From the NCBI GenBank assembly GCA_964478135.1, contig CAYZGQ010000001.1, positions 3,365 to 67,364 of the forward strand: a DNA stretch of 64,000 nucleotides. The letters are read 5' to 3'. Below are positions 34,598 through 55,486 of the stretch, one piece after another (position 1 is the stretch's first letter; every line of letters starts with the position of its first letter). Under the pieces are notes generated by a model. The model was given only the letters and a program-made list of their open reading frames with translations. It had not been told where the DNA came from and searched no databases. The position numbers and the translations under genes were made by a program. This stretch comes from an uncultured Candidatus Saccharibacteria bacterium. Lineage in GTDB: Bacteria; Patescibacteriota; UBA1384; GWA2-35-9; CAYZGQ01.

Positions 34598-35275
34598 CTA
34601 GCTGGCTGGCGAGGGGCTTGGGCTAGCGGCTGATTGGCCAGTTTGACGGGCGAACACAATGTAACGTTTGACGAGCGTGCCCGGAGGCCAAGAGGTTTGG
34701 AGAGTTATGGTTTTGTCTTTCGGATCTTTGGGCGTTGGGTCTAGAACCGAGAAGTCGTCAGAGGCGACCACCTTCTTGCCAAAGACCTCGTATTGGTAGG
34801 CGACATTTTTGTAATAGACGATGAACCGATCGCCTTTGTCGAGTTTGTCGATACTTTTGAAGATTTCTTTAAGTTCTGGTTTACCCGGGAAGTTTTTAAA
34901 GTAGCTCGAGTGACCGAAGATGTACATATTTCCCAGTTGGTCCGGTTTCTGGCTACCTTTTAGATGTGCGACACCGAGCTGGGAGGTGATTTTTTGATAG
35001 ACCGGTTCGTTAGCCCCGTCAACATCCGCGATAATTGGAACCCGGATGCTGATTTTTTCGATCTCAAGACCAAATTCTTTGATCTCGACTGGTTCTGGCA
35101 GGGAACTTTGATTAAGCCCTGAAGGAGAGGCAGAGGGTTGAACGATTGATACGTTCAAGCCTGACTTTACCAAAGCAAGCGTTCCGGCAACAACCATAGC
35201 GCTTGCTAGTCCAATACCAAGAATAACTAGCTTTTTTTGAGTAGTCACTTGTGGCAAGACAGATTGTGGGTTCAC
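34598..35275 (-). CDS. sortase-family transpeptidase homolog with Ser in place of the catalytic Cys (the protein has no Cys)
   Basis: N-terminal TM anchor. Conserved sortase His (MYIFGHSSY). The TLxTC motif reads KTITLQTSWPPG (codon tct). Conserved Arg (LVKRYIVFARQ). The GTG start overlaps the upstream LPKTG gene's stop as GTGA. Confidence 0.7.
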   Translation of the reverse strand: MNPQSVLPQVTTQKKLVILGIGLASAMVVAGTLALVKSGLNVSIVQPSASPSGLNQSSLPEPVEIKEFGLEIEKISIRVPIIADVDGANEPVYQKITSQLGVAHLKGSQKPDQLGNMYIFGHSSYFKNFPGKPELKEIFKSIDKLDKGDRFIVYYKNVAYQYEVFGKKVVASDDFSVLDPTPKDPKDKTITLQTSWPPGTLVKRYIVFARQTGQSAASPSPSPAS

Positions 35276-38200
35276 GCGAGCCGGCGTCGAAGGGTTACCG
35301 CGACCGATCCAGCGGCAAGAGCGGCCAGTCCGATCAAGGCCAGTAGGTTGAGCGCGAGCGTGTTGGCCCCGGTTTTCGGCAGCTCAACAACCTGCGCCGA
35401 AACCTGATCGGTGTTAATTGACTCGTTGCCAGTTGTATCGAGGGAGCGCAGGGTGTAGTAGTATGTCCCTTTGGCGGTCAGGCTGTCATTATAACTCGTG
35501 TCTGCCTTGACGGTCGTCTTAATTTTATCGCCTAGCTTTCCAGATTCACTCGAGCGGTAAATGTTAATCTTGTCAAAGTCAGAGTCGGTTGGATTTTTCC
35601 AAGTTAAACTGATCTTACCAGTGCCGGCAGTCGCTTTGACTTCGCTTGGAGCGGCCGGCGGGGCGCTGTCAGCGTTGGCCGCCAGGCCAAAGACGGTTAA
35701 GTGGGAAACCAAACAACTAACTTCGTTTTTAGTGGTGTCAACGGTGCAGTTTTCCTTAGACAGTGAACCATCGGTCTCGTTGAATGAGACGATCTGGATA
35801 TCAGCTTCTTTGACCCCGGCCGGAATATCGGATTCTTTATAGGGGAAGGTGACGGTCAAGGGACTGTTGGGAGAAGTAATGTTAGAACCATTAGAGTCGA
35901 TCGCCGTGATATTATAAGCCTTTCCAAAGACAGAGGCACCTTCTTGGGCAGGCATTTCTGCTGTGGCGCCAACATTAAGCGTGACATTAGCGTCATCATT
36001 GTTTTTATCGAGTGCATCTGCGGGCACTTGGATGTTCATACCATCGCTTAAGGAGATTGCCGTAGCCGAACCCGAATTGCCAGTTCTTGAAGCGTCAGCT
36101 GGCAAAACGTTGCTTTGGGTAGTCAAACTAAAATCTTGGGTGAGATTGGTCGTTTGACCCTTGGTGTTAACCAGTTTTTCACCTGGTAGGATTATGACAT
36201 CTTTTTGGTTATCAGCATCTTTGGCGACATCAAGGTGCCAGACAGTATCTTTGGTGGCATTCATTGAGTATTTGCCATTGGAATCAGTCCGGACTTGGTT
36301 GACAGCGCCGTCGTCGGAATAGGCGCTGACAAGGGCATTGTTGACTGTTTGAGCGCTGGAATCATTAACTGTGCCTTCAAACTTAAAGTCGGCTTTGCGT
36401 AACTTAAAGTCAACCCCAGTTTTAGTTTCTTGATTGCCCACGCTAACGATTTGTTCAGCCGGTGGTAGCCAGCCATTTTTATTCAGCACTTCGGGCGCCA
36501 TAAAAACTCGGATGTTTTGGGTTTCACTGGAAGTGACATCGATTGAGTAGCTACCATTCGTATCAGTTTGGCCACTGAATTCGAAGAAGTCAGGCACAGG
36601 ACCTTTAGTTGCGTTGCGGTTATCGTCGTCTAGGCCGTTGTCCACTTTAACTTTCGCTCCCACGACCGCGTTACCATCGGGATCGGTGACTTTACCTTGG
36701 ATTTTGCTGTCAAGGGCTTTGAGTGTTACTTTAACCTCTGCCGTTTGGCCGGCCGTCAGGCTGACTTTGTCTTTGGGGGGTACCATGGCAAAGCCTGAAC
36801 CTGGTTCGATAAAGACACCGACACGGTAGGGGCTTTGCCCGGCAACAACACTAATGTTGTTAACAGAGGCGGCTCCGCCATGACCGGCGAAATCACCCAT
36901 GACATTGACACCTTTGTCAGAAATAGCAAAGGCGTGGGCAAAGACGCCGGAAATGGCACTGCCGTCAGATTTCACTAACTTAACGGCAATGTTAGCATCG
37001 GTAGGAACCAGCTTGATATCAATTGATTTGACCTCGTTTTTAGCAAGTTTGACCTTGCTAAATCCTTCGGGCATAAAGCCGTTCATTGGCATCATTGGGT
37101 TTAATGTGTACTCATTGTCACCGGGAACTTTGATATTAGCGCTCCCACGCTGGATTGGTTTACCCAGAAAGCCGATCGTATCACTATTAACTTCCATAAA
37201 GCCAAAGCTGTCAGAGACGACAGCTTTGGTGTCAGAACGGGTAATCCTGGCCTTGATGGTGGCATCGGCGTTAAGTGCCTCGAAGGTAGCTGTTCCACCG
37301 GCTTCAACGAACTGTGGCCCGCCTTTGATCACCTTGGAACTGCCAGCCTGTTGCTCTTGATCCTTTTGACCACCTTCAGGTCCAAAGTTCTCTGACATCA
37401 CCATCACGCCGTATTTGCCCGTGCCGACCACAGGGATCGTGCCGGTTGCTTCGGTCCCAGTCAGCTTAAGAATAGTAAAGCCGAATTCACCGCCTCCACC
37501 GACGCCCATCTTAAAGACATTGGCATTCATGTCGGCGGAGCCGTTTTTAACCACGACTTTGATTGCCTTTTCTTTTTTTACCAGAGTCAGGATACCGAGG
37601 TTTTTGGTTTCGCCGGCTTTAACCGCGATTGGCTCAATGACAGGCGCTGCGAACTGGGCGGCGTTGGGATTTTGGAAGTTCGGTGGCGAAAAGATGTCGA
37701 AATTATAGCTTTTTCCTCCGGCTACTTTCACGTTGAAGTTGACCGAGGAGGCACCCGGGGTAATCTGGAGGGGCGCGCCAAAGCCAAAGTCATTACCGGC
37801 CCGGATACCAAGACCGGTGCCTTGAGCTAGGGCGGATCCATCAGGCGTGGTAATTGTACCGGTAACCGCGGCGTCGACTTTTACGAAGTTATTAATGTTA
37901 ACGGTGACTGTTTCCACTGAATCGTCGTCTTTAAAGCTAGCCTGAATTGGCGGACCGCTCATCACGAAACTGCCGGCCCCATCGCTCGGGGCATGGATAT
38001 TCCATCTACCACCCGAGAGTTTGACGCTGTAGTTGCCGCTCCCGTCGGTTTTAGTTTGGGCAAAACCACCCGCTTCTTTAAAGAAGTTTAAGCTAGTAGT
38101 GATTACAGCTTCACCGGTCGCGGTGGTTGCTTTACCGGTTAAAGTTTTGGTCGCAGATTTAAATTTAATGGTTTTGCCAGTCAATTGGCTGCCGGTGTAG

Positions 38201-38577
38201 GTACCAAGATCTGTGAACGGGGGAGAGATTAATCCAGTGGTTGAGCCGTCAAACGGTGGGAAAAGATCGGCCACGAGCTTGTCGCCGCTTTGGGTGTTAT
38301 TAGCGAAGTCTTGGATAGTTGCCAGGCCGTTAGCGTCTGAATTGCTAAATAAGGAATATTTAAAATCAATCGGATGGACGTTAACTCCGGCGTTTTTGAC
38401 CGGCGCGCCATCGGCATCCTGGATGGTAATTACAATAATGGTTTTAGCCGTGGGTGGTGGTTGGGCGAGTGAGGCGCCAGAGTAGGCGAGGACTAGGCCC
38501 GCGATAGTGAAGACGCTTGTAAGGCCGCGCCAGTACAGGCGGAAAGCACCCGCCTGGGTCGTTCCTGATTGTAACAT
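35272..38577 (-). CDS. LPKTG-anchored cell-surface protein (about 1100 aa) with carboxypeptidase-regulatory-like/Ig-like domains and a C-terminal FN3 module
   Basis: Signal peptide. C-terminus ...VVELPKTGANTLALNLLALIGLAALAAGSVAVTLRRRLA is an LPxTG motif plus hydrophobic segment plus basic tail. The track start at 38598 is a TTG. The ATG at 38577 (MLQSG...) follows a strong SD AAAGGAGGG and is preferred. Confidence 0.8.
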   Translation of the reverse strand: MLQSGTTQAGAFRLYWRGLTSVFTIAGLVLAYSGASLAQPPPTAKTIIVITIQDADGAPVKNAGVNVHPIDFKYSLFSNSDANGLATIQDFANNTQSGDKLVADLFPPFDGSTTGLISPPFTDLGTYTGSQLTGKTIKFKSATKTLTGKATTATGEAVITTSLNFFKEAGGFAQTKTDGSGNYSVKLSGGRWNIHAPSDGAGSFVMSGPPIQASFKDDDSVETVTVNINNFVKVDAAVTGTITTPDGSALAQGTGLGIRAGNDFGFGAPLQITPGASSVNFNVKVAGGKSYNFDIFSPPNFQNPNAAQFAAPVIEPIAVKAGETKNLGILTLVKKEKAIKVVVKNGSADMNANVFKMGVGGGGEFGFTILKLTGTEATGTIPVVGTGKYGVMVMSENFGPEGGQKDQEQQAGSSKVIKGGPQFVEAGGTATFEALNADATIKARITRSDTKAVVSDSFGFMEVNSDTIGFLGKPIQRGSANIKVPGDNEYTLNPMMPMNGFMPEGFSKVKLAKNEVKSIDIKLVPTDANIAVKLVKSDGSAISGVFAHAFAISDKGVNVMGDFAGHGGAASVNNISVVAGQSPYRVGVFIEPGSGFAMVPPKDKVSLTAGQTAEVKVTLKALDSKIQGKVTDPDGNAVVGAKVKVDNGLDDDNRNATKGPVPDFFEFSGQTDTNGSYSIDVTSSETQNIRVFMAPEVLNKNGWLPPAEQIVSVGNQETKTGVDFKLRKADFKFEGTVNDSSAQTVNNALVSAYSDDGAVNQVRTDSNGKYSMNATKDTVWHLDVAKDADNQKDVIILPGEKLVNTKGQTTNLTQDFSLTTQSNVLPADASRTGNSGSATAISLSDGMNIQVPADALDKNNDDANVTLNVGATAEMPAQEGASVFGKAYNITAIDSNGSNITSPNSPLTVTFPYKESDIPAGVKEADIQIVSFNETDGSLSKENCTVDTTKNEVSCLVSHLTVFGLAANADSAPPAAPSEVKATAGTGKISLTWKNPTDSDFDKINIYRSSESGKLGDKIKTTVKADTSYNDSLTAKGTYYYTLRSLDTTGNESINTDQVSAQVVELPKTGANTLALNLLALIGLAALAAGSVAVTLRRRLA

Positions 38578-38630
38578 TATCCCTCCTTTTGAGCTCAAGA
38601 TATATTTAATTAATTTGTAATTCTGTTTTT

Positions 38631-40068: not shown

Positions 40069-40959
40069 ATGGCTACCAAGATTATTAAAGTAAAAGCGGT
40101 CAAGTCAGCCCAAACAACTACCGGTCGCCAGAAGACCGAAAGCCATCTTATGGGTAAGACGAGCAAGGCCAAGGAGCCTTCAAAGATAGCCCTGCCAAGT
40201 GTTGAGAAACTATTTGAACTGGGCGCCCATTTTGGTCATCAGCGCTACCGATCTCATCCTGATTTTCAGGAATACGTCTGGCAAGTGCGCGATGGAGTTA
40301 TGATTTTGGATTTAAGCCAAACGCTTGACCGGCTCAAACTGGCGCTTGATTTTTTGGACAAGCAGAGTCGACTTGGCAAAAAAATACTAATTGTTGGGAC
40401 CAAGAGAATCAGTCGTGATTTGGTCGAGCGCTTGGGTAAAGAAACAAACACAGCTTGGGTCTCAAACCGGTGGTTGTCTGGTACTTTGACTAACTTTGCC
40501 ACTCTGATTGGACAAATCAAAAAACTCAATCGTTTAAGCGAGTTGATCGGCTCGAAAGAGTTTGAGCAGATGACTAAAAAGGAACGTTTAATCTGGGAGC
40601 GAAAACTGGCCAGGCTCCACGACAACTTTGACGGTTTGAGCAGTCTTGAGGCAAGACCGGATATATTAGTGGTGATTGACGGACACGCTCACCGGATTAG
40701 CACAGATGAAGCCAAACGTTTGGGGATCACCACGGTCGTGTTCGCCGACAGCGACACTGATCCTAGCCTGTGCGATTACTTGGTCCCGATTAACGATGAT
40801 TCACGATCAACGATCGAGCTGGTGATTAATTTAATCGGTCAAGCGATCGGCGGTGCCAGAACATCTGATCAGACAACAAAGCCGGACAGTCTAGTAAAAA
40901 GTGACAGAGCCAGAGCGCGCGGTTTAAGTAAAATCAATAATGTCCAAGACGTTAGTTGA
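40069..40959 (+). CDS. rpsB: ribosomal protein S2
   Basis: LFELGAHFGHQRYRSHPDFQEYVWQVRDGVMILDL matches the S2 signature region. The N-terminus is 30-40 aa longer than typical, so an internal start (M28, nt 40150) is possible. Confidence 0.85.
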   Translation: MATKIIKVKAVKSAQTTTGRQKTESHLMGKTSKAKEPSKIALPSVEKLFELGAHFGHQRYRSHPDFQEYVWQVRDGVMILDLSQTLDRLKLALDFLDKQSRLGKKILIVGTKRISRDLVERLGKETNTAWVSNRWLSGTLTNFATLIGQIKKLNRLSELIGSKEFEQMTKKERLIWERKLARLHDNFDGLSSLEARPDILVVIDGHAHRISTDEAKRLGITTVVFADSDTDPSLCDYLVPINDDSRSTIELVINLIGQAIGGARTSDQTTKPDSLVKSDRARARGLSKINNVQDVS

Positions 40960-41404
40960 GACGATCAAAAAGCTCCGGGATGAAACAGGGGCCGGACTAA
41001 TGGATGTTAAAAAGGCGCTCACTCAAGCTGGTTCGGATCTCAACAAGGCGAGAGTGATTCTGCGTCAGACAAGCGCTGTCAAAGCGGTTCAAAAGAGTGA
41101 ACGCTCGACCCAAGCCGGCTTGATCGAATCATACGTCCACGCCGGCAAAATCGGGGTGCTGGTTGAGCTGGGTTGTCAGACCGATTTTGTGGCGCGCACG
41201 AGTGAGTTCAAGGCGCTAGCCCATGAACTAGCCCTGCAAGTGGCCTCAATGGCCCCTAAAAACGTGACCGAGCTGTTTAGCCAAAACTACATCAAAGACG
41301 AGTCAACCACGATCAAGCAGATTGTGAATAACGCGATCGCGAAACTGGGCGAAAATATTCAAATTAAGCGTTTTGTAAGGTTTGAACTTGGTCAGGGCGA
41401 CTGA
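40940..41404 (+). CDS. tsf: elongation factor Ts (short form)
   Basis: N-terminal UBA-like ETIKKLRDETGAGLMDVKKALTQAGSDLNKA. 154 aa. Overlaps rpsB by 20 nt. Confidence 0.8.
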   Translation: MSKTLVETIKKLRDETGAGLMDVKKALTQAGSDLNKARVILRQTSAVKAVQKSERSTQAGLIESYVHAGKIGVLVELGCQTDFVARTSEFKALAHELALQVASMAPKNVTELFSQNYIKDESTTIKQIVNNAIAKLGENIQIKRFVRFELGQGD

Positions 41405-41575: not shown

Positions 41576-44500
41576 GTGCTGGGTGTTTTAGCCCTGCTCG
41601 GTCTGGTTTTAGTCAGTCCTTCGGCCGTCCAGGCCGGTGCAATCACCGGTTTGTCGGTTACAGTCAGTGACACGAGCGTCCAAGGGACGGCTGACTGGAC
41701 AATTGCCCTGACTCCAGAACAGTCAGTCCCAGCCAAGTCAAATGGCGGTCGGATTCACATGTGTGTCTATGGACCAGGCTCGATGAGTTTTCGGGATGGT
41801 TCTGTCGCGCTCGATTCGTCGGCTAGCACGAGCGGTTTGTCAATCTATGAACGGTTGGGAAATTGTATCACCCTTCAGTCAAACAGCGAGATCGCAGGAG
41901 GAACGGTTATCACTGCCAAACTGACAGGGGTTAGAAACCCAGACAAAGCCGGACGGTATGTTGGTCACATCTACAGCTCGACCTACGGCACCGCCCGAGA
42001 CGGCACCTCTCGCTGGGGCGGGCTCTACAATAGTTCTTTTACCATCGGCGATTTGACCAAGAACACTATTTCAGGTACGGTCACAGATGCCAATGGCGCA
42101 CCGGTCCGGTTTGCCTCCGTCTCTGTTTGGGGTAGCGGCGGCGGCGCTTGGGGCTACAGCTACACCGATCAAAATGGCCAGTACGCGATCGGCAGTCTAA
42201 CCACTGGCTCCTACAACTTTAGCGTCTACGGTCCCTACAACGAAGACGGTATCTTTTATTTTGCGCCTGATGTTTCGAGTATTTCAATTTCCGATACTTC
42301 GGCCACGACCAAAAACGCCAGCTTTTTAGCGACTCCCAAAACATTGCAAATTAAGGTTGAGGACGGCTCTGGTACAGCCATAACCGATGCCTATGTCTCG
42401 ATCTGGTCCAGAAACGGGAATGGTTGGGCTCAAACCAAAAACAACACCAACGGAGTCTACAAGATTAATGTTCCGAAAAACCGGACTTTTGGGTTTAGCG
42501 TTTATCCCCAAAATTGGCCTTCAACCTGGCAGTCATGCGGCAGTTATAACGAAGAAGTTACGACCGCCAACACCGATACGGCCGAGACTGTCAGTAAGAC
42601 GTTTAAGGTTTCCTCGCTCAACGCCACGGTCAAAGGTAAGATTGAGCGGTCTGACGATAGCACGCCCAAGCGCTGGTCAGTGAGCGTGAGTTTCCAGTCA
42701 AGCGGAGGTTGCTGGGCTTCAGCCGACTTTCCCGACGACACTGGTAATTTCAGCGCTAAAGTTGTCAGTGGCGAGACTATCACCGCGACTGGTTGGGTTT
42801 CGAGTGATCTCAACGAATCATTCCCAACGGTCAGTAACTTTTCGGTCCAAGCCAACCAAGAGCACAACCTGGGCGTAATCAAACTTAAAAAGCGTGATAA
42901 AAAGCTCGCTGTGACGGTTGTGGACAAAAATGGCGATCCGGTTAACAAGGCCAACGTCTACGCTTGGAAAACTGGCGGTTCGTATGAATATGCCAACGGC
43001 ACAACTGGCTCCGATGGCAATGCGGAACTCTTTTTGAGTCCAGGCAGCTGGAATGTTTCGGCCGGGCCAGAGTACCGCTGGAATGGCTCAAACAACGAAT
43101 ATGACTATGTCTCCAACTGGAAGTCTCAATTGATCAGCTTTTCCGAGTCAGACACGACTAAAACGATCAAGTTTATCTTCCAAAAGGTTACCTCAACGAT
43201 TAATGTCACCGTGACCGATGAGGCTGGGAGCGTCCTTAACCTATCGGGTAGTTTGTCGGCCAACGATGGTTCGCAAGAATGGTCAAATATCTGGTCCCAG
43301 CTCAATAGTGGCAAAGGCAAGCTTAGGGTTCCCCGAGGGACCTGGAGTGTTAACGCCAGTATTTGGGATGAGACCTATAGCTCACCAAATCCGGTTGACA
43401 TCACGATCGGTGATAATGAGACCAAAGAGATCAAGCCCAAGGCCTTGATCAATGATTCGACCATTTCCGGCAAAATCTACACAGAAGATGAAGATGGTAA
43501 CCGGACCCTGCTTAAAAACACTTGGCTTAGCATCTATGCTAACAAAAAAAATTCCTACTCTTCTTGGCGGTCAGCCTCGGTCAACCAAGAAGAAGGAACC
43601 TATTCGATCAAAGTTTCCTCGGGTGACTGGAGGCTCGGTTACTGGTTTTATAACAACAATTATATGTCAGGATACGGGAACGAAGTTGATGTATCGGTTA
43701 AATCAGGTGAAACTAAGACCCAAGATATTATTCTGCGCAAAGCTAACTACACCATCTCGGTCAAGGCGCTCGATCCAGACGGCAAGGCGCTGATGGGGGC
43801 TTGGATCACGGCTGACACGCGCAATCCTAAAGAGCGGACCGAAGCTGGTACTTGGTACTCAACCGGTACCTCAACCAATAATCAGGGAGAGGGGACGATT
43901 CAAGTGTCAGCCAACACTTACTGGATTAGTGGTTCGATGTGGTCAGGTTATATCAGTCCAGAGCGCCAAGAGGTTAAGGTCAATAAAGACAATCCAACTG
44001 CCAGTGTCACTCTCCAGTTCGGTCGGTCTGATGCGACTATATCTGGCACAGTCAAGCTCGATGACAAAGGGACTAAGTCGTTTGTTAATGCGGTCAGCGA
44101 GAAAGGCCGCTATGCCGAGACTAATTCAAGTAACGAAGGCCATTACATCCTCAACGTCTCGAAAGACGACACTTGGGTCGTCAAGGCAGTTAAAAAGGAT
44201 GGCGCAACTTTGTATCGATCAGACAAGAATCGAGTTGATCTCACTGGTAAGACCACGGGCATAGTCAATCTCGATTTGGTAAAAGAAACAATCAAGTTGC
44301 CGGAGGGGACGACCAGCACCTTTAATGCCAGCCAGTCAACTACCGTTAAGATTAAAAATGGCAATGTTGACGAAGTGATCATCACTGTTCCGACTGGCAC
44401 CCTGTCGAGCGATAATGAACAGATAACTGTAACGGCCGATGTGACCGAAGAGGTCACCGACACTTCAACTAGCGAGCCTGTTTTCGACTACGGTTATGAC

Positions 44501-45193
44501 ATCAACGCCAACGGTAGCCAATCCGGCACAATCAGCCAGTTGAAGGATAACGTGACCGTGACCGTAAACTATTCGGCCAACGAGCAGGCGATCCAAGATG
44601 AGGGAACAGAAGAGGACCTAGTGGTAGCCCGTTTCAACAACGAGAAAGGTGAATGGGAGCAACTCCAAGGTTGCGCTACAAACAAGGATGACAACACTAT
44701 TACCTGTCAAAATAATCACTTCACCAAGTTTGCGGTTGTCGCTTCAACCGACATCACCCCACCTTCTGCTCCAGGTAGCCAGAAGGCGATTGCTTCGAAC
44801 GCTAAGATTTCTTTAAGCTGGAGCAAGCCAAGCCAGGCCGACTTTGCCGGGGTTAACATCTATCGGTCAACCGAGAGTGGCAAGCTGGGTGATAAGATTT
44901 ACGGCAAAAATACCTCCACCAGTCACGACGATACGGTTCTGATCAACGACACGGTCTATTACTATACCCTCAAGTCAGTTGACAAAGCCGGTAACGAGTC
45001 AACCGCATCCGATCAGCTCAAAGCCAAGCCTTCAGCAACCTCGCCGGAGTCATCGGACGGTTCAACCACTGCCACGCTCTCAATTCTGCCCAAGACTGGT
45101 CAACCAGCCTCGCCTTTGAATTGGTTGTTGGCGATTCTGACAGTGATCAGCCTGGCCGGGGTCAGGGCATCGAGGATTGTCCGGATTAAGTGA
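41576..45193 (+). CDS. LPKTG-anchored cell-surface protein (1205 aa), paralogous architecture to 35272-38577
   Basis: GTG start immediately after an in-frame stop. Signal peptide LLGLVLVSPSAVQA. Multiple carboxypeptidase-regulatory-like domains (GTVTDANGAPV). C-terminal FN3 module (VNIYRSTESGKLGDKI...YYYTLKSVDKAGNES) and a sorting signal LPKTGQPASPLNWLLAILTVISLAGVRASRIVRIK. Confidence 0.8.
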   Translation: MLGVLALLGLVLVSPSAVQAGAITGLSVTVSDTSVQGTADWTIALTPEQSVPAKSNGGRIHMCVYGPGSMSFRDGSVALDSSASTSGLSIYERLGNCITLQSNSEIAGGTVITAKLTGVRNPDKAGRYVGHIYSSTYGTARDGTSRWGGLYNSSFTIGDLTKNTISGTVTDANGAPVRFASVSVWGSGGGAWGYSYTDQNGQYAIGSLTTGSYNFSVYGPYNEDGIFYFAPDVSSISISDTSATTKNASFLATPKTLQIKVEDGSGTAITDAYVSIWSRNGNGWAQTKNNTNGVYKINVPKNRTFGFSVYPQNWPSTWQSCGSYNEEVTTANTDTAETVSKTFKVSSLNATVKGKIERSDDSTPKRWSVSVSFQSSGGCWASADFPDDTGNFSAKVVSGETITATGWVSSDLNESFPTVSNFSVQANQEHNLGVIKLKKRDKKLAVTVVDKNGDPVNKANVYAWKTGGSYEYANGTTGSDGNAELFLSPGSWNVSAGPEYRWNGSNNEYDYVSNWKSQLISFSESDTTKTIKFIFQKVTSTINVTVTDEAGSVLNLSGSLSANDGSQEWSNIWSQLNSGKGKLRVPRGTWSVNASIWDETYSSPNPVDITIGDNETKEIKPKALINDSTISGKIYTEDEDGNRTLLKNTWLSIYANKKNSYSSWRSASVNQEEGTYSIKVSSGDWRLGYWFYNNNYMSGYGNEVDVSVKSGETKTQDIILRKANYTISVKALDPDGKALMGAWITADTRNPKERTEAGTWYSTGTSTNNQGEGTIQVSANTYWISGSMWSGYISPERQEVKVNKDNPTASVTLQFGRSDATISGTVKLDDKGTKSFVNAVSEKGRYAETNSSNEGHYILNVSKDDTWVVKAVKKDGATLYRSDKNRVDLTGKTTGIVNLDLVKETIKLPEGTTSTFNASQSTTVKIKNGNVDEVIITVPTGTLSSDNEQITVTADVTEEVTDTSTSEPVFDYGYDINANGSQSGTISQLKDNVTVTVNYSANEQAIQDEGTEEDLVVARFNNEKGEWEQLQGCATNKDDNTITCQNNHFTKFAVVASTDITPPSAPGSQKAIASNAKISLSWSKPSQADFAGVNIYRSTESGKLGDKIYGKNTSTSHDDTVLINDTVYYYTLKSVDKAGNESTASDQLKAKPSATSPESSDGSTTATLSILPKTGQPASPLNWLLAILTVISLAGVRASRIVRIK

Positions 45194-49557: not shown

Positions 49558-49842
49558 ATGGACGATTCAATGAATCCCGTTGGCGGTGGTACGGGTGCCG
49601 GCGATACCGGTTCTACCGACACTGGCGCCGGGGCTGTTCCTAGTACGCCAAGCGGCGACACCAGTACGGGGGATGCAGATCAAACCCCTGCTTCTGGGGG
49701 GGGTAGCTCGGTCCCAACGCCCCCAGCTCCTTCTGGCGGCGATGGTGGTTGGACTCCTGCTGGGGCTGATACAGCTAGCATACCAGATGGTGATTCCGAT
49801 TATTCGGCCGACGCAGTTCCAACTCCACCCGCCGGTCAGTAA
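49558..49842 (+). CDS. small acidic Gly/Thr/Asp/Pro-rich low-complexity protein (94 aa)
   Basis: SD AAGGAGG 4 nt before the ATG. Followed by an intrinsic terminator. No TM or recognisable domain. The overlapping ORFs 49567-49863(-), 49580-49921(+) and 49775-50002(-) are alternative-frame artefacts of the same GC-rich low-complexity stretch. Confidence 0.4.
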   Translation: MDDSMNPVGGGTGAGDTGSTDTGAGAVPSTPSGDTSTGDADQTPASGGGSSVPTPPAPSGGDGGWTPAGADTASIPDGDSDYSADAVPTPPAGQ

Positions 49843-49872
49843 CCCGAATTTGTCGCCAAACATCCAAAAACA

Positions 49873-49893
49873 ACCCCTTAAGGGGTCGTTTTT
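49873..49893 (+). terminator. rho-independent terminator
   Basis: ACCCCttaaGGGGT hairpin followed by a TTTTT tract, 31 nt after the stop at 49842. Confidence 0.5.
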
Positions 49894-50024
49894 GGATGCT
49901 GGTTGTGATAGATTGAGTTAAGCGATCATTGTGCCCCGGTTGCGAACAACTATTGTCTAGTTTTTTCCAGTCCCAGTCCCAGTCTTTATTGCTAGTTGTC
50001 ACTATCTAACTTTTATGTAAAGTA

Positions 50025-50808: not shown

Positions 50809-51867
50809 GTGAAACTAAGAACCGTCAAGAACGTTAGTTGTTCGGGCCAACGAGTTTTGGTCAGAACCGGTTTCGATGTTCCGATTAAAAGTGGTCGGGT
50901 CCTAGATATTGGCAGGCTCGAAGCCGCTGGCCCAACCTTAAAGTATTTGATTAAGCGCCAAGCTCGTTTGATTATCGCGTCTCATCAGGGCCGTCCTGAT
51001 GGAAAATTTTTAGCCGCCTTGAGTCTTAGGCCGATCATAAAGGTGATTGAACGACTGCTTAATCGGCCGGTTATTTTTGCCAAGAGATGCGTTGGCGTTC
51101 AAACTAGAAAAATGGTCAGTCAGCTTGTGCCAGGCGAGGTAATGTTGCTTGAAAACTTGCGTTTTGAGCCGGGTGAGACGGCCAACGATCCAAGTTTTGC
51201 CCGTCAACTGGCCGGATTGTGCGACATTTATGTCAACGAGGCTTTCCCTAACTGTCATCGAAACCACGCCAGCATGACCGGTCTGGCTAAACTTGTGCCA
51301 GCCTACGCCGGGTTTCAAGTTGAACAAGAGGTTTTTCAGCTTTCCAAGCTCCTGGCGTCTCCGGCTAAACCATTTGTGGTGATTATCGGCGGAGCCAAGG
51401 TTGAGGACAAAGCGTCAGTCATCGATCGGTTAAAGAGCAAGGCCGATTGGGTGCTGGTCGGCGGTAAGACAGCCCTTGAAATTAACCAGCGCGGTTTGTA
51501 TCGAGCTGACAAAAACGTCTTGGTCGCTGATGATTTTGTCCTGGACGAATCAGGTGTCAAGCTTGATATTAGCCGAAAGGTTGTCGATTGGTTTACCCCG
51601 AAGATTTTGAAGGCCCAAACTATTTTTTGGAATGGCAATCTAGGCAAGACCGAGGATGCCCGTTTTAGGGCTGGCAGCGAGACGATTGGGGCGCTTGTGG
51701 CCAATTCGTCAGCCGTGAGCGTGATTGGCGGCGGCGATACAGCCAACCTTGTCCGAGAGTTAGGGATTGCTCGCAAGATGACCTTTATCTCAACCGGCGG
51801 CGGGGCGACGACCCAATTTCTGGCTACCGGCGGACGTTTGCCAGGACTCGAACCGCTCTATCGTTAG
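50809..51867 (+). CDS. pgk: phosphoglycerate kinase
   Basis: GTG start. VLVRTGFDVPIK (the RVDFNVP motif) and a C-terminal VIGGGDTAN. 352 aa. Confidence 0.85.
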   Translation: MKLRTVKNVSCSGQRVLVRTGFDVPIKSGRVLDIGRLEAAGPTLKYLIKRQARLIIASHQGRPDGKFLAALSLRPIIKVIERLLNRPVIFAKRCVGVQTRKMVSQLVPGEVMLLENLRFEPGETANDPSFARQLAGLCDIYVNEAFPNCHRNHASMTGLAKLVPAYAGFQVEQEVFQLSKLLASPAKPFVVIIGGAKVEDKASVIDRLKSKADWVLVGGKTALEINQRGLYRADKNVLVADDFVLDESGVKLDISRKVVDWFTPKILKAQTIFWNGNLGKTEDARFRAGSETIGALVANSSAVSVIGGGDTANLVRELGIARKMTFISTGGGATTQFLATGGRLPGLEPLYR

Positions 51868-52017: not shown

Positions 52018-52410
52018 ATGGCAAAGCATCTGGCTATTTTTAGCCCTAATCAACTGATCGAAAAAATTTTTCGCTCTATCAAGACGGTTGATGGTCGCTT
52101 GACCCAAGACCGAGTCGCTCCCTATGGGTTGGTTAAAAAAGGCGACACAATCCTGATTAAAATCAGCGGCGGACCGGTTTTAGGTCAGGTTGAAGTGGAT
52201 AACGTTTTGTTTTTTGAGCTGACAGATGGGGAACTATTGGGTAAACTTCGGAAAGAGTATGGGGCTGACATGGCGGTTGACGATCGTTTCTGGGAACTTA
52301 AACGAGAGGCCCGCTTTGCCAGCATCATCTTCTTAACCAAACCCAAACGTTACCTGACGGCGCTCAAGTTCAAAAAGCGCGATCGCCGGGCTTGGGTCGT
52401 AGTGGGATAA
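52018..52410 (+). CDS. small PUA/ASCH-like domain protein (130 aa)
   Basis: The beta-rich pattern IFRSIKTVDGRLTQDR...GDTILIKISGGPVLGQVEV resembles the ASCH (G.KT.E.R) fold. Weak assignment. Confidence 0.35.
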   Translation: MAKHLAIFSPNQLIEKIFRSIKTVDGRLTQDRVAPYGLVKKGDTILIKISGGPVLGQVEVDNVLFFELTDGELLGKLRKEYGADMAVDDRFWELKREARFASIIFLTKPKRYLTALKFKKRDRRAWVVVG

Positions 52411-52540
52411 AAGAAGGAGGTTGTCCTTTGACAATTATTCGTCGGTCGATTTTATCGGTCGGCTCGTGCATTTTAATGGCGGAAAATTTGTCGGATTGTG
52501 GGATTAGTGGATCGATGGCAAAGCTAAAAGGAGGTAGGGA

Positions 52541-53404
52541 ATGAACAATCTTACTCTAGAAAATCTTTCCTTGCCCAAGGAAGATTATTTTAAGATCAAC
52601 TTTCAAGTTACCGATGAGATGTGCCTGGGTCATTTTGATCCCAAACGACACTACGGGGTCTTGCCTGGTGCGTACCTTTTTGGGTTGGTTTGTGATTATT
52701 TCACCCAGAATAATAACCGTTCAATCACTGCAATTACTAAAGCTCAATTTACCCGACTGATACTACCGAGCATGGAGGTGTTAATCGAAGTTTGGATCAA
52801 GGGCAATCAGGTAAGAGTGGTTTGTTTTGCCGAAGGCCGGTCGGCGGCTACCATGGATCTGTTGCTGACCGAGTTGTCCGGGTCACAGGACGATTGCCCA
52901 GGCGCAGTGTCTTTGGCCGGAACTTATCTCCCATCCGATCAACTTAATGACTTATTGCCGTTTAGTTCTGATTTTATATTGATTCGGGATGTCGTAATCG
53001 GAGAGGATTGTTCCTTCTGTCTTGTTAGATCGAAACAAGACCCTCGTTTTTTTGACGATCAAAGGTTAAAATTGTCGGGTCTGATCGAAGCCGGTAATCA
53101 TTTATTAATCACTCACGTCTTATCACTCCATCAGGAGCTCGTCGGACAGGTGCCGTTTCTGGTCAGGCTGACCGATGTCAGCTTCTCGGGCCCTCGACTG
53201 GTTAATCCGAATTGTGTTCTACTGATGGTTGATAATCTTAATATGCGAGGTAATCACGGACGTGCTCGAGTAATCGGCTGTCAGACGGATGTAACAGAAA
53301 TCTACCGGGCTCAAGTTAGCTTCCGTAGTGACTCAAGTGGTGTCGAGCATAAATACCAACCCGGTACGCCAGTACCGAGCAACCCATCCCCAGCTTTGCC
53401 TTGA
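52541..53404 (+). CDS. FabZ/FabA-like hotdog-fold dehydratase, tandem double-hotdog (287 aa)
   Basis: The first hotdog has the FabZ active-site context CLGHFDPKRHYGVLPGAYLFGLV (HF..P..PG.L). The second half is hotdog-like without the His motif. SD AAAGGAGG upstream. Confidence 0.5.
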   Translation: MNNLTLENLSLPKEDYFKINFQVTDEMCLGHFDPKRHYGVLPGAYLFGLVCDYFTQNNNRSITAITKAQFTRLILPSMEVLIEVWIKGNQVRVVCFAEGRSAATMDLLLTELSGSQDDCPGAVSLAGTYLPSDQLNDLLPFSSDFILIRDVVIGEDCSFCLVRSKQDPRFFDDQRLKLSGLIEAGNHLLITHVLSLHQELVGQVPFLVRLTDVSFSGPRLVNPNCVLLMVDNLNMRGNHGRARVIGCQTDVTEIYRAQVSFRSDSSGVEHKYQPGTPVPSNPSPALP

Positions 53405-53417
53405 ACCGGCTAAAACG

Positions 53418-54152
53418 GTGGTAATAACTGGCGGATCGGGGACGATCGGTCGAGCGATGGTCTGGCAATTCGGGGCCAATGGCTGCGACGTAGTGGTCCA
53501 GTATAATAGAGACGAACCGGCGGCTCGATTTACTGCCGAGTCAGCCCAACGGCAGTTTGGGGTCAAGACCTGGCTTGTCCAGCAAGATTTTGCTCAACCA
53601 GGATCTGGCAAGAATTTCTGGCTCAATGTCAAAGCTATAGTCGGCCAAACCCCGGACATTCTGGTCATCAATGCCGGTTTCCTTGGCATCGGATCAAACG
53701 GGCTTTCCCTGACTGAAGAAGAATTATATGACAGTATCCAAGTCAACGCCGTGCAACCGTTTTTCTTAATGCAGGCGATGATGAATGACCCGGACACCCC
53801 CTCTGATTCCCAAATCTTGGTCCATCTTTCTAAGGGTTGGGACAAGTGGCTGCCCGGTTACGCTGGATTAGGCATGGCCAAAGCCCTTCTGATGCGGATG
53901 GTCATTGAACTAGCCCAAGTAGGAGCGCCCCGCCGTATTTGCGTCAACGCCATTACGAGCGACCTAGTTGCCCAGACCGACGTTATGAATTGGTTTCCCC
54001 CTCATGAGGTCGCGCTCCACCTCGATCGGATGCCCTTTGGGAGACTGATATACCCAGAGGATGTGGCAATATTTTTCTGCCACACTGCCTGTAACTTAGG
54101 TGTTACCGGCCAAAACCTTGTGTTCGATGGCGGGGTAGGGAATGTAGCATGA
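53418..54152 (+). CDS. SDR-family oxidoreductase, FabI-like enoyl-reductase type (Y-x6-K)
   Basis: Rossmann motif VVITGGSGTIGRA. Active-site region GYAGLGMAKAL is Tyr-x6-Lys as in FabI (YNVMGLAKA). The start is uncertain. An ATG at 53328 would give a 77-nt overlap with the hotdog gene. A GTG at 53418 lies just after its stop. Confidence 0.55.
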   Translation: MVITGGSGTIGRAMVWQFGANGCDVVVQYNRDEPAARFTAESAQRQFGVKTWLVQQDFAQPGSGKNFWLNVKAIVGQTPDILVINAGFLGIGSNGLSLTEEELYDSIQVNAVQPFFLMQAMMNDPDTPSDSQILVHLSKGWDKWLPGYAGLGMAKALLMRMVIELAQVGAPRRICVNAITSDLVAQTDVMNWFPPHEVALHLDRMPFGRLIYPEDVAIFFCHTACNLGVTGQNLVFDGGVGNVA

Positions 54153-54163
54153 GATTTTCAGTC

Positions 54164-54190
54164 AAAGAAGGCCCAAACAGGCCTTCTTTT
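54164..54190 (+). terminator. rho-independent terminator
   Basis: AAAGAAGGCC-caaaca-GGCCTTCTTT hairpin with T-run, 12 nt after the SDR stop. Confidence 0.55.
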
Positions 54191-54214
54191 GAGAGCCGGG
54201 TCGTGCTAGAGTAA

Positions 54215-55486
54215 TTGGCACAGATGGCGAATCGTCACTCTAGTTCGAGCCGACTTTCAGTCCCCGAGATTAAGGTGAGCCTCAAAAAGTTGCCTCGGTC
54301 ACGGGTTGCGCTGACGATTAGAGTATTCCAACAAATGTTAGGCGCCACGGCCAAACGGGTCTACTCAGCCATTGCTCCCCAAGTGACAGTGGCCGGCTTT
54401 CGGCCGGGCAAGGCGCCGATTGACAAAACGATCGAGGCGTTCGGTCGCGTCCGTTTTAGCAACGAAGTCCTTAACTTAGCCCTAAAAGAAAGCTACCAGC
54501 AGGGGCTTGAGAAAAATCAACTTGTGCCAGTGGCTGGGCCCTCAATCAGCTTGGCGGCTTGGCGGCTCGACGAGCGTGGCCGGCCGCTTGAGAATCTAGT
54601 CTACACGGCTGAAGTTGATGTCATGCCCAAGGTGTCAGTCAGCGGCTACCAGTCGATCCGTCTCAAAGACTATCAACCGTTGTCAAGCGAGGTGACCGAT
54701 CAGGAGGTTGAGGCGGTGTTAGATCATTTGAGCCGTCAGCGGGGTGAGCTCAAACCGCTTGACCGACCGGCGAGACTGGGAGACTGGATCCTTATTAGTT
54801 TTAAGGGCAGTATCGAAGGTGTGGTCAAAGAGCCGCTCACGTCAAAAAATTATCCTCTTGTTCTTGGGTCGAGGCGAATGGTCCATGGTTTTGAAGATAA
54901 TGTGGTTGGTATGAAGGCTGGTCAAAAAAAAACCTTTGAGTTGAGACTGCCCAAGTCAATCAAGGATTTGGGCGGCCGGAGAGCGGGCTTTGAAGTTTTG
55001 CTCCATGAGGTTAAAGAAATTATTAAGCGGCCGATTGACCAGGCCTTTGCCCAGTCTCTTGGTCACGAATCTCTTGAGAGTCTTAAAAAGGCGATCAGGG
55101 CCAATTTAGTTCGGGAAAAGAGTCAACGGGCGCGTCAACACCTGGAACAGACCGCTATACGGGAACTGCTTAAAAAACTGTCAGTCGAGATTCCAGACAG
55201 CTTAATCGAGCGTGAGCTTGGGCGGATGCTCGATTCGATTCGTGAGAGCGTTACCAAACAGGGACTGACCATGGAGGGCTACTTGGCTTCAATTAAAAAG
55301 ACGATCGAGCAACTGGCCCAAGACCTTCGAACCCGAGCCCAAGACTCGGTTCGAGCCGGTTTAGCCTTGACCGCACTTGGCCAGGCCGAAGCAATTGATA
55401 CCAATCAGCCAGGGTCAACTAATAAAGTGATTAACAGATTGATCGAGATTGGACTGCGATCAGATAAGAAATCAGATAAGAATTGA
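54215..55486 (+). CDS. tig: trigger factor
   Basis: The ribosome-binding signature GFRPGKAP (GFRxGxxP), a PPIase-like middle domain, and a tig-clpP gene order. Confidence 0.8.

What the first reader, a model, noticed from the sequence alone, without database searches (positions are those of the whole stretch)
52429..54152. Isolated FabZ-like double-hotdog dehydratase plus FabI-like (Y-x6-K) reductase pair with a coupled upstream mini-ORF
The first protein carries the FabZ/FabA catalytic His context (LGHFDP...VLPGAY) in hotdog 1, with a degenerate hotdog 2. The second protein is an SDR with the enoyl-ACP-reductase-type Tyr-x6-Lys (GYAGLGMAKA). No other fatty-acid-synthesis genes (fabD, fabH, fabF, acpP) are visible in 64 kb of otherwise minimal housekeeping content. 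The pair may act on a non-FAS substrate such as lipid or quinone salvage, or host-derived acyl chains. A 37-codon ORF sits upstream (TTG at 52429, 7 nt after a strong SD AAGGAGG). It ends in TGA overlapping the dehydratase ATG, which suggests leader-peptide-type translational control.
Basis: partly seen in the sequence, partly recalled or inferred. Interest (0 to 1): 0.5.

Follow-up and report, generated by a model that had tools for sequence, protein, structure and literature searches.

The report
Orphan protein plus FabL-like reductase
A reduced, symbiont-type (Patescibacteria) genome carries a lineage-specific two-gene insert: a clear but very divergent FabL-type enoyl-reductase-like enzyme, preceded by a protein with no detectable relatives whose proposed "FabZ dehydratase" identity could not be confirmed by any profile or structure method.

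Summary
The ORFs are real, with small coordinate errors. ORF2 (to 54152) is a short-chain dehydrogenase with the enoyl-reductase-type Tyr-x6-Lys. Its best family and best solved-structure matches are both B. subtilis FabL, but it scores far below the FabL family cut-off (99 vs 328 bits).

ORF1 (52541-53404) is an orphan. It has no relative among about 15 billion proteins and no Pfam or NCBIfam hit even at E=10. Both AlphaFold models were poor, and fold searches gave no hotdog match. FabZ profiles score it at noise level (empirical p about 0.001-0.008; hhalign probability 1.5% or less). So "FabZ-like double hotdog" is a motif-level lead, not a finding.

No fab, acpP or pls genes lie in the 64 kb. 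A related Patescibacteria genome has the same ProRS-TIM-PGK-ASCH-tig-ClpP order without the pair. The roughly 1.8 kb (52411-54214) is therefore a lineage-specific indel, with native-like codon usage and its own hairpin terminator.

The upstream mini-ORF exists (TTG at 52428, 38 codons, ATGA overlap). However, SD plus start is not beyond chance, there is no RNA structure signal, and conservation cannot be tested.

Best guess, at low confidence: a stand-alone dehydratase plus enoyl-thioester reductase pair acting on scavenged acyl chains.

The parts
52411..54214 (+). Lineage-specific ~1.8 kb segment between the stop of the ASCH-like gene (52408-52410) and the start of trigger factor. It holds everything listed below.
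   Evidence: In L137 (MAG Patescibacteria group bacterium, JBASTP010000002.1) the order ProRS-TIM-PGK-ASCH-like-tig-ClpP is the same. There the ASCH-like stop overlaps the tig ATG, with nothing in between. GC content and codon usage of the segment are native-like.
52414..52420 (+). SD-like AAGGAGG, 7 nt upstream of TTG 52428.
   Evidence: Sequence. Of 14 AAGGAGG sites in the window, only 4 precede a long ORF.
52428..52544 (+). Mini-ORF of 38 codons (LTIIRRSILSVGSCILMAENLSDCGISGSMAKLKGGRE). Its TGA overlaps the ORF1 ATG. The TTG is also the first half of a perfect TTGACA hexamer.
   Evidence: The frame-specific codon log-odds is only +2.0 over 38 codons. RNA fold z = -0.41. No Rfam hit. No homologous locus exists.
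52528..52534 (+). Shine-Dalgarno sequence (AAGGAGG) of ORF1, 6 nt before the ATG.
52541..53404 (+). ORF1, 287 aa: an orphan protein and a possible tandem hotdog. Candidate His31 lies in GHF (52628-52636). Candidate Glu183 lies in LIEAGNH (53081-53101). The tail after residue 262 is Pro-rich.
   Evidence: Coding: a long ORF with frame-specific codon log-odds of +26. No relatives were found. No family match. AF2 pLDDT was 35 and 50.7, and fold searches gave no hotdog match. FabZ profiles scored it at noise level.
53328..54152 (+). ORF2: a FabL-like SDR of 274 aa if it starts at GTG 53328 (alternatives are 53337, 53340 and less likely 53418). TGGSGTIG is at 53427-53450. Arg61 (YNRD) is at 53502-53513. 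Y178-x6-K185 is at 53856-53882.
   Evidence: Pfam adh_short_C2 6.9e-23. NCBIfam FabL 99 bits, against a cut-off of 328. PDB 3oic (FabL) 3.6e-19 with Y and K aligned. Alignment with FabL and the nearest relatives.
54164..54189 (+). Perfect 10-bp hairpin (AAAGAAGGCC / GGCCTTCTTT, 6-nt loop) followed by TTTTG. It is terminator-like and lies 12 nt after the ORF2 stop.
   Evidence: (I10) and the sequence. The simple terminator scan did not list it because the T-run is short.

Best explanation
A small, lineage-specific operon sits between the ASCH-like gene and tig in a divergent Patescibacteria (CPR) genome. It has its own ribosome-binding site and its own terminator hairpin.

The downstream gene encodes a very divergent FabL-type SDR. 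It has the glycine motif TGxxxGxG, an Arg after strand 2 that suggests NADPH use, and the enoyl-reductase Tyr-x6-Lys dyad. I infer that it reduces the C=C bond of a trans-2-enoyl thioester.

The upstream gene encodes a 287-aa orphan protein. The most likely reading, though unproven, is a strongly diverged tandem hotdog with one composite active site: His31 from the first half (GHF) and Glu183 from the second half (LIEAGNH). [quoted passage not shown]

Together the two proteins would convert 3-hydroxyacyl thioesters through enoyl to saturated acyl thioesters. That is the last two steps of an elongation cycle, here without the condensing and keto-reducing steps. The plausible substrates are acyl chains scavenged from a host.

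Shown: the ORFs, the SDR family and catalytic motif, the indel, the absence of other fab genes in 64 kb, and the orphan status of ORF1.
Inferred: the fold and activity of ORF1, the substrate, and cooperation between the two proteins.

The mini-ORF is most likely an incidental ORF in the 5' leader.
For: - ORF2: best NCBIfam model is FabL and best solved structure is B. subtilis FabL 3oic (3.6e-19). The alignment places Y178 and K185 on the FabL Tyr and Lys, and R61 on the FabL Arg of YARS.
- In classical SDR relatives the Tyr sits at K-4, where ORF2 has Leu. Tyr-x6-Lys is the FabI ENR motif (PMC3791895).
- ORF1 and ORF2 are tightly packed (overlapping), share a strand, and are flanked by one strong SD and one hairpin.
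- ORF1 scores highest of all 48 window proteins against three FabZ profiles, and 3rd to 6th of 766 natural control ORFs. N-half versus shuffles: 2-8 of 2000 reach its score.
- The matched pieces are collinear with FabZ: GHF..PG, then 63-96 on FabZ 94-127, then 133-152 on FabZ 11-30 at the start of the second half.
- AF2 secondary structure of the full-length model shows a helix followed by 4-5 strands, twice.
- FabZ catalytic residues are labelled on different monomers, and each substrate tunnel is built from both monomers (PMC5143422).
- The pair is absent from the syntenic relative. CPR genomes are reported to lack lipid synthesis, and some carry partial FAS-II sets without the ACP machinery (PMC7242380).
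Against: - ORF1 has no Pfam or NCBIfam hit even at E<=10.
- hhalign probabilities against a FabZ alignment are 1.5% and 0.7%.
- The FabZ score falls as the profile is made more diverse, from 6.6 to 3.8 bits. An unrelated 1149-aa surface protein scores higher.
- The two halves show no similarity to each other.
- ORF2 is far below the FabL equivalog cut-off, and generic SDR families score only 14-20 bits lower. Its substrate is therefore open.
- The nearest Y-x6-K relative (P0003) has no hotdog neighbour.
- No acyl carrier, CoA ligase or acyltransferase gene lies nearby.
Confidence: 0.35

Rival explanations
1. ORF1 is an unrelated lineage-specific protein and not a hotdog. ORF2 is a divergent SDR working on some non-lipid substrate. 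The GHF..PG motif and the FabZ-like pieces are chance resemblances.
For: All family, profile-profile and structure tests for a hotdog fold were negative or at noise level. Control proteins reach the same FabZ-profile scores. GHF-x(4-14)-PG also occurs by chance in controls. ORF2 scores 99 bits for FabL against 85 bits for a glucose dehydrogenase subfamily model.
Against: ORF2 has the enoyl-reductase Tyr-x6-Lys in place of Tyr-x3-Lys. ORF1 is the top-scoring window protein against FabZ profiles, and three collinear matched pieces fall in the expected order. A dehydratase is the natural partner of an enoyl reductase.
Confidence: 0.4
2. This is an ordinary fragment of a complete type II fatty-acid synthase whose other genes (acpP, fabD/H/F/G) lie elsewhere in the genome.
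For: The rest of the genome could not be inspected. Some CPR lineages (Nealsonbacteria) carry near-complete FAS-II sets (PMC7242380).
Against: Neither protein reaches any FabZ, FabA, FabI or FabL curated threshold. ORF1 has no relative among about 15 billion proteins, whereas true FabZ is ubiquitous. The syntenic relative lacks the pair. Patescibacteria are generally reported to lack lipid synthesis (PMC11665869). No fab, acp or pls gene lies in the 64 kb.
Confidence: 0.1
3. ORF1 and ORF2 are made as one fusion protein (N-terminal orphan or hotdog part, Pro-rich linker, SDR) through a +1 shift at the ORF1 stop (CCU-UGA-A read as CCU-U-GAA). Alternatively, they descend from such a fused gene that was split by a 1-nt indel.
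For: ORF2 is in the +1 frame. The ORF1 stop (53402-53404) lies exactly at the N-terminal edge of the SDR homology: E26 is GAA at 53403-53405 and aligns with FabL residue 2. There is no canonical start between 53340 and K29. The ORF1 tail QPGTPVPSNPSPALP looks like an interdomain linker. The sequence is identical in independent assemblies, so this is not an assembly error.
Against: No SD-like stimulator lies upstream of the site. tRNA-Pro re-pairing from CCU to CUU is poor. Three in-frame GTG starts at 53328-53340 offer an ordinary alternative. Codon log-odds in the overlap slightly favour the ORF2 frame (+2.6 against 0.0).
Confidence: 0.08
4. The 38-codon upstream ORF is a translated leader peptide that controls ORF1 through termination-reinitiation at the ATGA overlap.
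For: AAGGAGG lies 7 nt before TTG 52428. The ORF is open for 38 codons while the other two frames are closed. Its stop overlaps the ORF1 ATG. Codon log-odds are weakly positive, at +2.0.
Against: ORF1 has its own strong SD inside the mini-ORF, so coupling is not needed. AAGGAGG predicts a gene start in only 4 of 14 cases in this window. There are no alternative hairpins or stable structure (z = -0.41) and no Rfam family. Synonymous codon usage is poor (-1.35). No relative exists, so conservation cannot be tested.
Confidence: 0.12

Closest known systems
FabL (enoyl-ACP reductase III, B. subtilis; PDB 3oic/3oid; NCBIfam NF005975)
   Same: SDR fold with the classical TGxxxGxG motif, an Arg after strand 2, and the Tyr-x6-Lys catalytic dyad in register. 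FabL is the best match in both NCBIfam and PDB.
   Different: Only about 26-29% identity. The score is 99 bits against a family cut-off of 328. No FAS II or ACP context is visible. ORF2 has an N-terminal extension or an overlap with ORF1.
FabZ / FabA (3-hydroxyacyl-ACP dehydratases, Pfam PF07977)
   Same: GHF...PG loop followed by a predicted long helix and beta-strands. There are short collinear matches to FabZ beta3-beta4 and, in the second half, to the LLPHRYPFLLVD strand and the ILEAMAQ helix (and by eye).
   Different: No significant profile or structure match. The His loop is 3 residues longer. The first half has no Glu/Asp at the FabZ/FabA position. The protein is a single 287-aa chain, not a 150-aa homodimer subunit. 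It has no relatives at all.
[quoted passage not shown] 2007, cited in PMC5143422)
   Same: The proposed layout: one chain with two hotdog halves, the His in the first and the acidic residue in the second, followed in the pathway by an enoyl reductase.
   Different: Those are domains of megasynthases, with the HxxxGxxxxP and DxxxQ/H motifs and a Pfam PS-DH signature. ORF1 matches none of these. Their ER partner is an MDR-family enzyme, not an SDR (own knowledge).
HtdX-FabG4 operon of mycobacteria and MFE-2 / 17beta-HSD4 (double-hotdog hydratase 2 plus SDR); own knowledge, not tested here
   Same: A double-hotdog (de)hydratase of roughly 280 aa, genetically or physically linked to an SDR that acts on CoA-linked acyl chains outside the main FAS.
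   Different: There the hotdog is MaoC/hydratase-2 type, and the SDR is a 3-hydroxyacyl/3-ketoacyl oxidoreductase with Tyr-x3-Lys, not an enoyl-reductase-type SDR.
ACP-independent fatty-acid synthesis proposed for archaea and raised for some CPR (Lombard et al. 2012, cited in PMC7242380)
   Same: FAS-like dehydratase and reductase steps in organisms that lack the ACP machinery.
   Different: That proposal involves a full set of four activities. Here only two candidate steps are present, and the lineage relative lacks even these.

Membership tests
FabL-type enoyl-ACP reductase (NCBIfam NF005975) | Score at or above the curated equivalog cut-off (328 bits) | tested here: not met
   99 bits. It is the best of 206 families but far below the cut-off.
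FabL-type enoyl-ACP reductase (NCBIfam NF005975) | Tyr-x6-Lys catalytic dyad in register with FabL/FabI, with no Tyr at K-4 | tested here: met
   Y178 and K185 align with the FabL Tyr and Lys in 3oic. Position K-4 is Leu. The motif is described in PMC3791895.
FabL-type enoyl-ACP reductase (NCBIfam NF005975) | Classical SDR Rossmann motif TGxxxGxG and a basic residue after strand 2 (NADPH) | tested here: met
   TGGSGTIG is at residues 34-41. YNRD aligns with FabL YARS. Cofactor preference itself is inferred.
FabL-type enoyl-ACP reductase (NCBIfam NF005975) | Enoyl-ACP reductase activity, or complementation of fabI(ts) | not testable with these tools
   Needs an enzyme assay or E. coli JP1111 complementation.
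FabZ/FabA dehydratase (Pfam PF07977) | Significant match to the family profile | tested here: not met
   No Pfam or NCBIfam hit for the whole protein or either half, even at E<=10. Own FabZ HMMs score 1.8-6.6 bits. hhalign probability is 1.5% and 0.7%.
FabZ/FabA dehydratase (Pfam PF07977) | Hotdog fold: a long central helix wrapped by a 5-6-stranded antiparallel sheet | tested here: inconclusive
FabZ/FabA dehydratase (Pfam PF07977) | Catalytic His in the GHFP loop, plus Glu (FabZ) or Asp (FabA) on the central helix | tested here: inconclusive
   His31 in GHF is present. The helix of the first half has Gly at the Glu/Asp position. A candidate Glu183 (LIEAGNH) lies in the second half, which lacks the His (FFDDQ in place of FFQGH). 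This comes from reading the sequence, with no significant alignment behind it.
Leader-peptide / uORF translational control | uORF with a functional initiation site, conserved among relatives | tested here: inconclusive
   SD plus TTG is present, but AAGGAGG is a poor predictor of starts here (4 of 14). No homologous locus exists.
Leader-peptide / uORF translational control | Alternative RNA structures or a terminator whose formation depends on uORF translation | tested here: not met
   MFE is -35.8 kcal/mol against a shuffle mean of -34.4 (z = -0.41). Only a weak 8-pair, 3-GC hairpin lies at 52444-52464. No Rfam match.
Complete type II FAS locus | acpP, fabD, fabH, fabF and fabG in the neighbourhood or genome | tested here: not met
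   None among the called genes of the 64 kb.

The most novel reading that the evidence does not exclude
A Patescibacterium that cannot make fatty acids has evolved or acquired a minimal stand-alone 'dehydratase + enoyl reductase' module. The module consists of a single-chain FabZ-derived double hotdog with one composite His/Glu site and a FabL-type reductase, possibly even expressed as one fusion protein through a +1 shift at the stop codon. It would turn host-derived 3-hydroxy or 2-enoyl acyl chains into saturated chains for the organism's own membrane. If so, it would be the first dedicated lipid-remodelling enzyme pair described in this group.
Probability: 0.12. Interest if true: 0.6.

Novelty: new variant of a known kind. 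Interest (0 to 1): 0.3.

Why it matters
Patescibacteria (CPR) are thought to be unable to make lipids. How they obtain and tailor their membrane acyl chains is an open question (PMC7242380, PMC11665869). An isolated dehydratase/enoyl-reductase pair would be a concrete, testable candidate for acyl-chain remodelling.

As it stands, only the reductase half is credible. The pair occurs in a single known lineage, so its general importance is limited.

The case also shows two practical points. Automated gene calls cut off the cofactor-binding motif of the reductase. And a short catalytic-looking motif (GHF..PG) is not enough to assign a hotdog dehydratase.

Tried and rejected
- **Relatives of ORF1.** A word-indexed search of 5.8 billion clusters found only the query itself. 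Exhaustive HMMER over 1.84 billion representatives found the query plus two spurious repeat proteins with MBG and TIG domains. The genome-contig scan found none.
- **FabZ profiles.** A search seeded with E. coli FabZ, and a metagenome scan, returned almost only gamma-proteobacterial sequences. This was a poor use of two capped searches. I added P. aeruginosa, H. pylori, P. falciparum and C. jejuni FabZ and E. coli FabA from memory. I accepted them only after PDB searches scored each at near-identity levels (about 2.1-2.25 bits per residue) against 1u1z, 3b7j, 1z6b, 3d6x and 1mka.
- **Internal duplication of ORF1.** There is no similarity between the two halves.
- **Horizontal-transfer signature.** GC content and codon usage are native-like.
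- **Flanking repeats.** One exact 11-nt direct repeat brackets the cassette, but about 0.5 such pairs are expected by chance.
- **Gene neighbourhood of the nearest SDR relatives.** No hotdog gene lies nearby.
- **Riboswitch or known RNA in the leader.** None was found.
- **Sigma-70 promoter downstream of the TTGACA at 52428.** No acceptable -10 hexamer was found.
- **Organism name.** Cluster look-up of six window proteins gave no names. The genome itself did not turn up in the genome collection scans.
Full report
**What is in the sequence**

The region holds three forward-strand ORFs.

- The mini-ORF starts at TTG 52428-52430. AAGGAGG lies at 52414-52420, 7 nt upstream. The ORF ends with a TGA at 52542-52544.
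- That TGA overlaps the ATG of ORF1 (52541-53404, 287 aa). ORF1 has its own AAGGAGG 6 nt upstream.
- ORF2 runs to 54152 in the +1 frame relative to ORF1.

ORF2's Rossmann motif TGGSGTIG begins at 53427. The only in-frame start codons upstream of it are GTG 53328, 53337, 53340 and 53418. Homologues all extend 5-7 residues beyond an invariant Lys (K29), so 53418 is unlikely. ORF2 therefore probably overlaps ORF1 by 65-77 nt. Public gene calls start it at ATG 53457 (231 aa), which removes the cofactor motif.

A perfect 10-bp hairpin followed by TTTTG lies 12 nt after the ORF2 stop. The same sequence, 99.98% identical and without gaps, is present in two independent read-set assemblies. The frame arrangement is therefore not an assembly artefact.

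**ORF2**

ORF2 is a short-chain dehydrogenase/reductase. It matches Pfam adh_short_C2 at 6.9e-23.

- Its best NCBIfam model is FabL at 99 bits, but the curated cut-off is 328. The next models follow closely: a glucose dehydrogenase subfamily at 85 bits and generic SDRs at 79 bits and below.
- Its best solved structure is B. subtilis FabL (3oic, E = 3.6e-19). In that alignment Y178 and K185 fall on the FabL Tyr and Lys, and Arg61 (YNRD) falls on the FabL YARS.
- In classical SDR relatives the catalytic Tyr is 4 residues before the Lys. ORF2 has Leu at that position and Tyr 7 residues before the Lys.
- Tyr-x6-Lys is the motif of the FabI enoyl-ACP reductase, and FabL is another SDR-family ENR (PMC3791895).
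- The nearest database relative is a Caldilinea SDR at 29% identity. It shares Y-x6-K but has no hotdog neighbour.

'FabL-like' describes it more precisely than 'FabI-like'. It is not a member of the FabL equivalog family by the curated threshold.

**ORF1**

ORF1 is clearly coding. It is an 864-nt ORF with a strong SD and a frame-specific codon log-odds of +26, against about -110 to -130 in the other two frames. But it is an orphan.

- A word-indexed search of 5.8 billion protein clusters returned only the query itself.
- An exhaustive HMMER scan of 1.84 billion representatives returned the query plus two repeat proteins (MBG and TIG domains), which are spurious.
- Nothing was found in 185,579 species genomes or in PDB sequences.
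- No Pfam or NCBIfam family matches the whole protein or either half, even at E<=10.
- AlphaFold2 without an alignment gave pLDDT 35 for the full length and 50.7 for residues 1-120.

I tested the FabZ hypothesis directly with three FabZ HMMs of increasing diversity. I accepted them only after PDB searches scored them at near-identity levels.

- The N-half scores 6.6, 5.2 and 3.8 bits. Only 2-8 of 2000 shuffles reach that score.
- The C-half scores about 0 bits (p about 0.04-0.06).
- hhalign gives probabilities of 1.5% and 0.7%.
- Among 766 natural control ORFs, ORF1 ranks 3rd to 6th, and first among the 48 window proteins. An unrelated 1149-aa surface protein scores higher.
- The motif GHF-x(4-14)-PG occurs twice by chance in 289,000 control residues.

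The matched pieces are collinear with FabZ. GHF..PG comes first. Residues 63-96 then fall on FabZ beta3-beta4. Residues 133-152 (QLNDLLPFSSDFILIRDVV) fall on the FabZ N-terminal strand, at the start of the second half.

By eye, the second half carries LIEAGNH where FabZ has ILEAMAQ, but has FFDDQ where FabZ has FFQGH. The first half has the His but a Gly at the Glu position. That complementary pattern is what a single-chain pseudo-dimer with one composite site would look like. In the FabZ dimer the catalytic His58' and Glu72 are labelled on different monomers and each tunnel is built from both monomers. The animal FAS dehydratase domain shares its catalytic residues between two pseudosubunits (PMC5143422).

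This is an attractive reading, but it rests on unaided inspection. Every objective test is negative or at noise level. I put the chance that ORF1 is a hotdog-fold protein at roughly 40-50%.

**Context**

The called genes of the 64 kb are housekeeping genes:

- tRNA synthetases, GatCAB, LigA, ribosomal proteins, RRF, TIM, PGK, trigger factor and ClpP;
- a sortase;
- four giant surface proteins;
- glycosyltransferases.

None is a fab, acp or pls gene.

PGK's best matches in the species-genome collection are only 39-42% identical and are mostly Saccharibacteria. One locus, L137, is labelled 'Patescibacteria group bacterium'. It shares the order ProRS-TIM-PGK-ASCH-like-tig-ClpP at 31-83% amino-acid identity. 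In L137 the ASCH-like stop overlaps the tig start (ATGA), with nothing in between.

So window positions 52411-54214 are a lineage-specific indel. The segment comprises the leader with the mini-ORF, ORF1, ORF2 and the hairpin. Its GC content and codon usage are like the rest of the window (ORF1 ranks 16 and ORF2 ranks 10 of 48). It is therefore not a recent foreign insertion.

CPR bacteria are reported to lack lipid synthesis. Some carry partial FAS-II sets without the ACP machinery (PMC7242380; PMC11665869). Whether this particular genome has other FAS genes elsewhere could not be checked.

**The mini-ORF**

The SD-like site and the ATGA overlap are real. However:

- AAGGAGG occurs 14 times in the window and precedes a long ORF only 4 times.
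- A start codon within 3-12 nt of any site is expected about 40% of the time (my estimate).
- The TTG is part of a TTGACA hexamer that has no usable -10 partner.
- The 156-nt leader folds no better than shuffles (z = -0.41).
- No Rfam family matches.
- Synonymous codon usage is poor, and the frame log-odds is only +2.0.
- ORF1 has its own strong SD, so it does not need coupling.
- No relative exists, so conservation cannot be tested.

I rate leader-peptide control at about 0.12.

**An extra observation**

The ORF1 stop codon sits exactly at the N-terminal edge of the SDR homology. GAA at 53403-53405 encodes E26, which aligns with FabL residue 2. ORF2 is in the +1 frame, and the ORF1 tail is Pro-rich and linker-like.

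A +1 shift at CCU-UGA-A would give a fusion protein. Alternatively, the two genes could descend from a fused gene split by a 1-nt indel. Against programmed shifting:

- there is no SD-like stimulator upstream;
- CCU-to-CUU re-pairing is poor;
- three GTG starts are available;
- the overlap's codon statistics slightly favour the ORF2 frame.

I keep this as a low-probability rival (0.08).

**Verdict**

The solid result is a highly divergent FabL-type (Tyr-x6-Lys) SDR, paired with an orphan protein, in a lineage-specific operon of a Patescibacteria genome.

My best mechanistic guess is a stand-alone dehydratase plus enoyl-thioester reductase acting on scavenged acyl chains (confidence 0.35). It is only slightly behind the sceptical rival, that ORF1 is unrelated to hotdog enzymes and the substrate is unknown (0.40).

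Interest is modest (0.3). The idea touches an open question, how CPR bacteria handle lipids. But one partner is unidentifiable, the pair is confined to one lineage, and the genome-wide FAS status is unknown.

Noticed in passing
window 52533-52543 and 54134-54144: An exact 11-nt direct repeat, GGTAGGGAATG, brackets the cassette. The first copy spans the ORF1 ATG and the second lies 8 nt before the ORF2 stop. About 0.5 such pairs are expected by chance in 2 kb, so it may mean nothing.
   Followed up: partly
window 53328-53405: The ORF1 stop lies exactly at the N-terminal edge of the SDR homology of ORF2, which is in the +1 frame. The ORF1 tail is Pro-rich and linker-like. This raises the possibility of a +1 frameshift fusion or a formerly fused gene.
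   Followed up: partly
window 53457 (L001 10001-10696): Public gene calls start the SDR at ATG 53457 (231 aa). This cuts off the TGGSGTIG cofactor-binding motif, so it is an annotation error.
   Followed up: yes
window 52018-52410; L137 7009-7392: A 130-aa ASCH-like protein (Pfam ASCH only at E = 0.1) is conserved at 53% identity in the Patescibacteria relative. There its stop overlaps the trigger-factor ATG (ATGA). An ASCH-tig translational coupling appears to have been broken here by the insert.
   Followed up: partly
window 54215-54275: Trigger factor here has about 13 extra N-terminal residues relative to L137 and no SD before either candidate start (TTG 54215 or ATG 54224). The real start may be further downstream, near GTG 54275.
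   Followed up: no
window 27397 and 41493: Two more AAGGAGG sites lie 49 and 83 nt upstream of the starts of giant surface-protein genes (27446, 41576), not at SD distance. The site at 52414 lies 127 nt before ORF1. This may be a recurring leader element or may be chance.
   Followed up: no
window 49580-49921: This 113-aa ORF has the highest GC content (58%) and the worst synonymous codon usage of the 48 ORFs. Public gene calls there give a 94-aa product without a Pfam hit. Its status as a gene is doubtful.
   Followed up: no
window 13204-19461, 27446-32896, 35272-38598 (-), 41576-45193, 34598-35275 (-): Four giant proteins (1108-2085 aa) sit near a sortase gene. Three carry matches recorded here (CarboxypepD_reg or fn3/Pur_ac_phosph_N); the 1816-aa protein was not covered by the Pfam look-ups. 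This suggests a large sortase-anchored surface repertoire, typical of episymbiotic Patescibacteria.
   Followed up: no
ORF1 residue 45 (window 52673-52675): A second assembly of the same population encodes Cys instead of Tyr at residue 45 (PGAY to PGAC). This lies directly after the putative catalytic loop.
   Followed up: no
window 50809-51867 and 40940-41404: PGK is short (352 aa), as in Saccharibacteria. EF-Ts is only 154 aa. Such truncated housekeeping proteins fit a reduced CPR genome.
   Followed up: no
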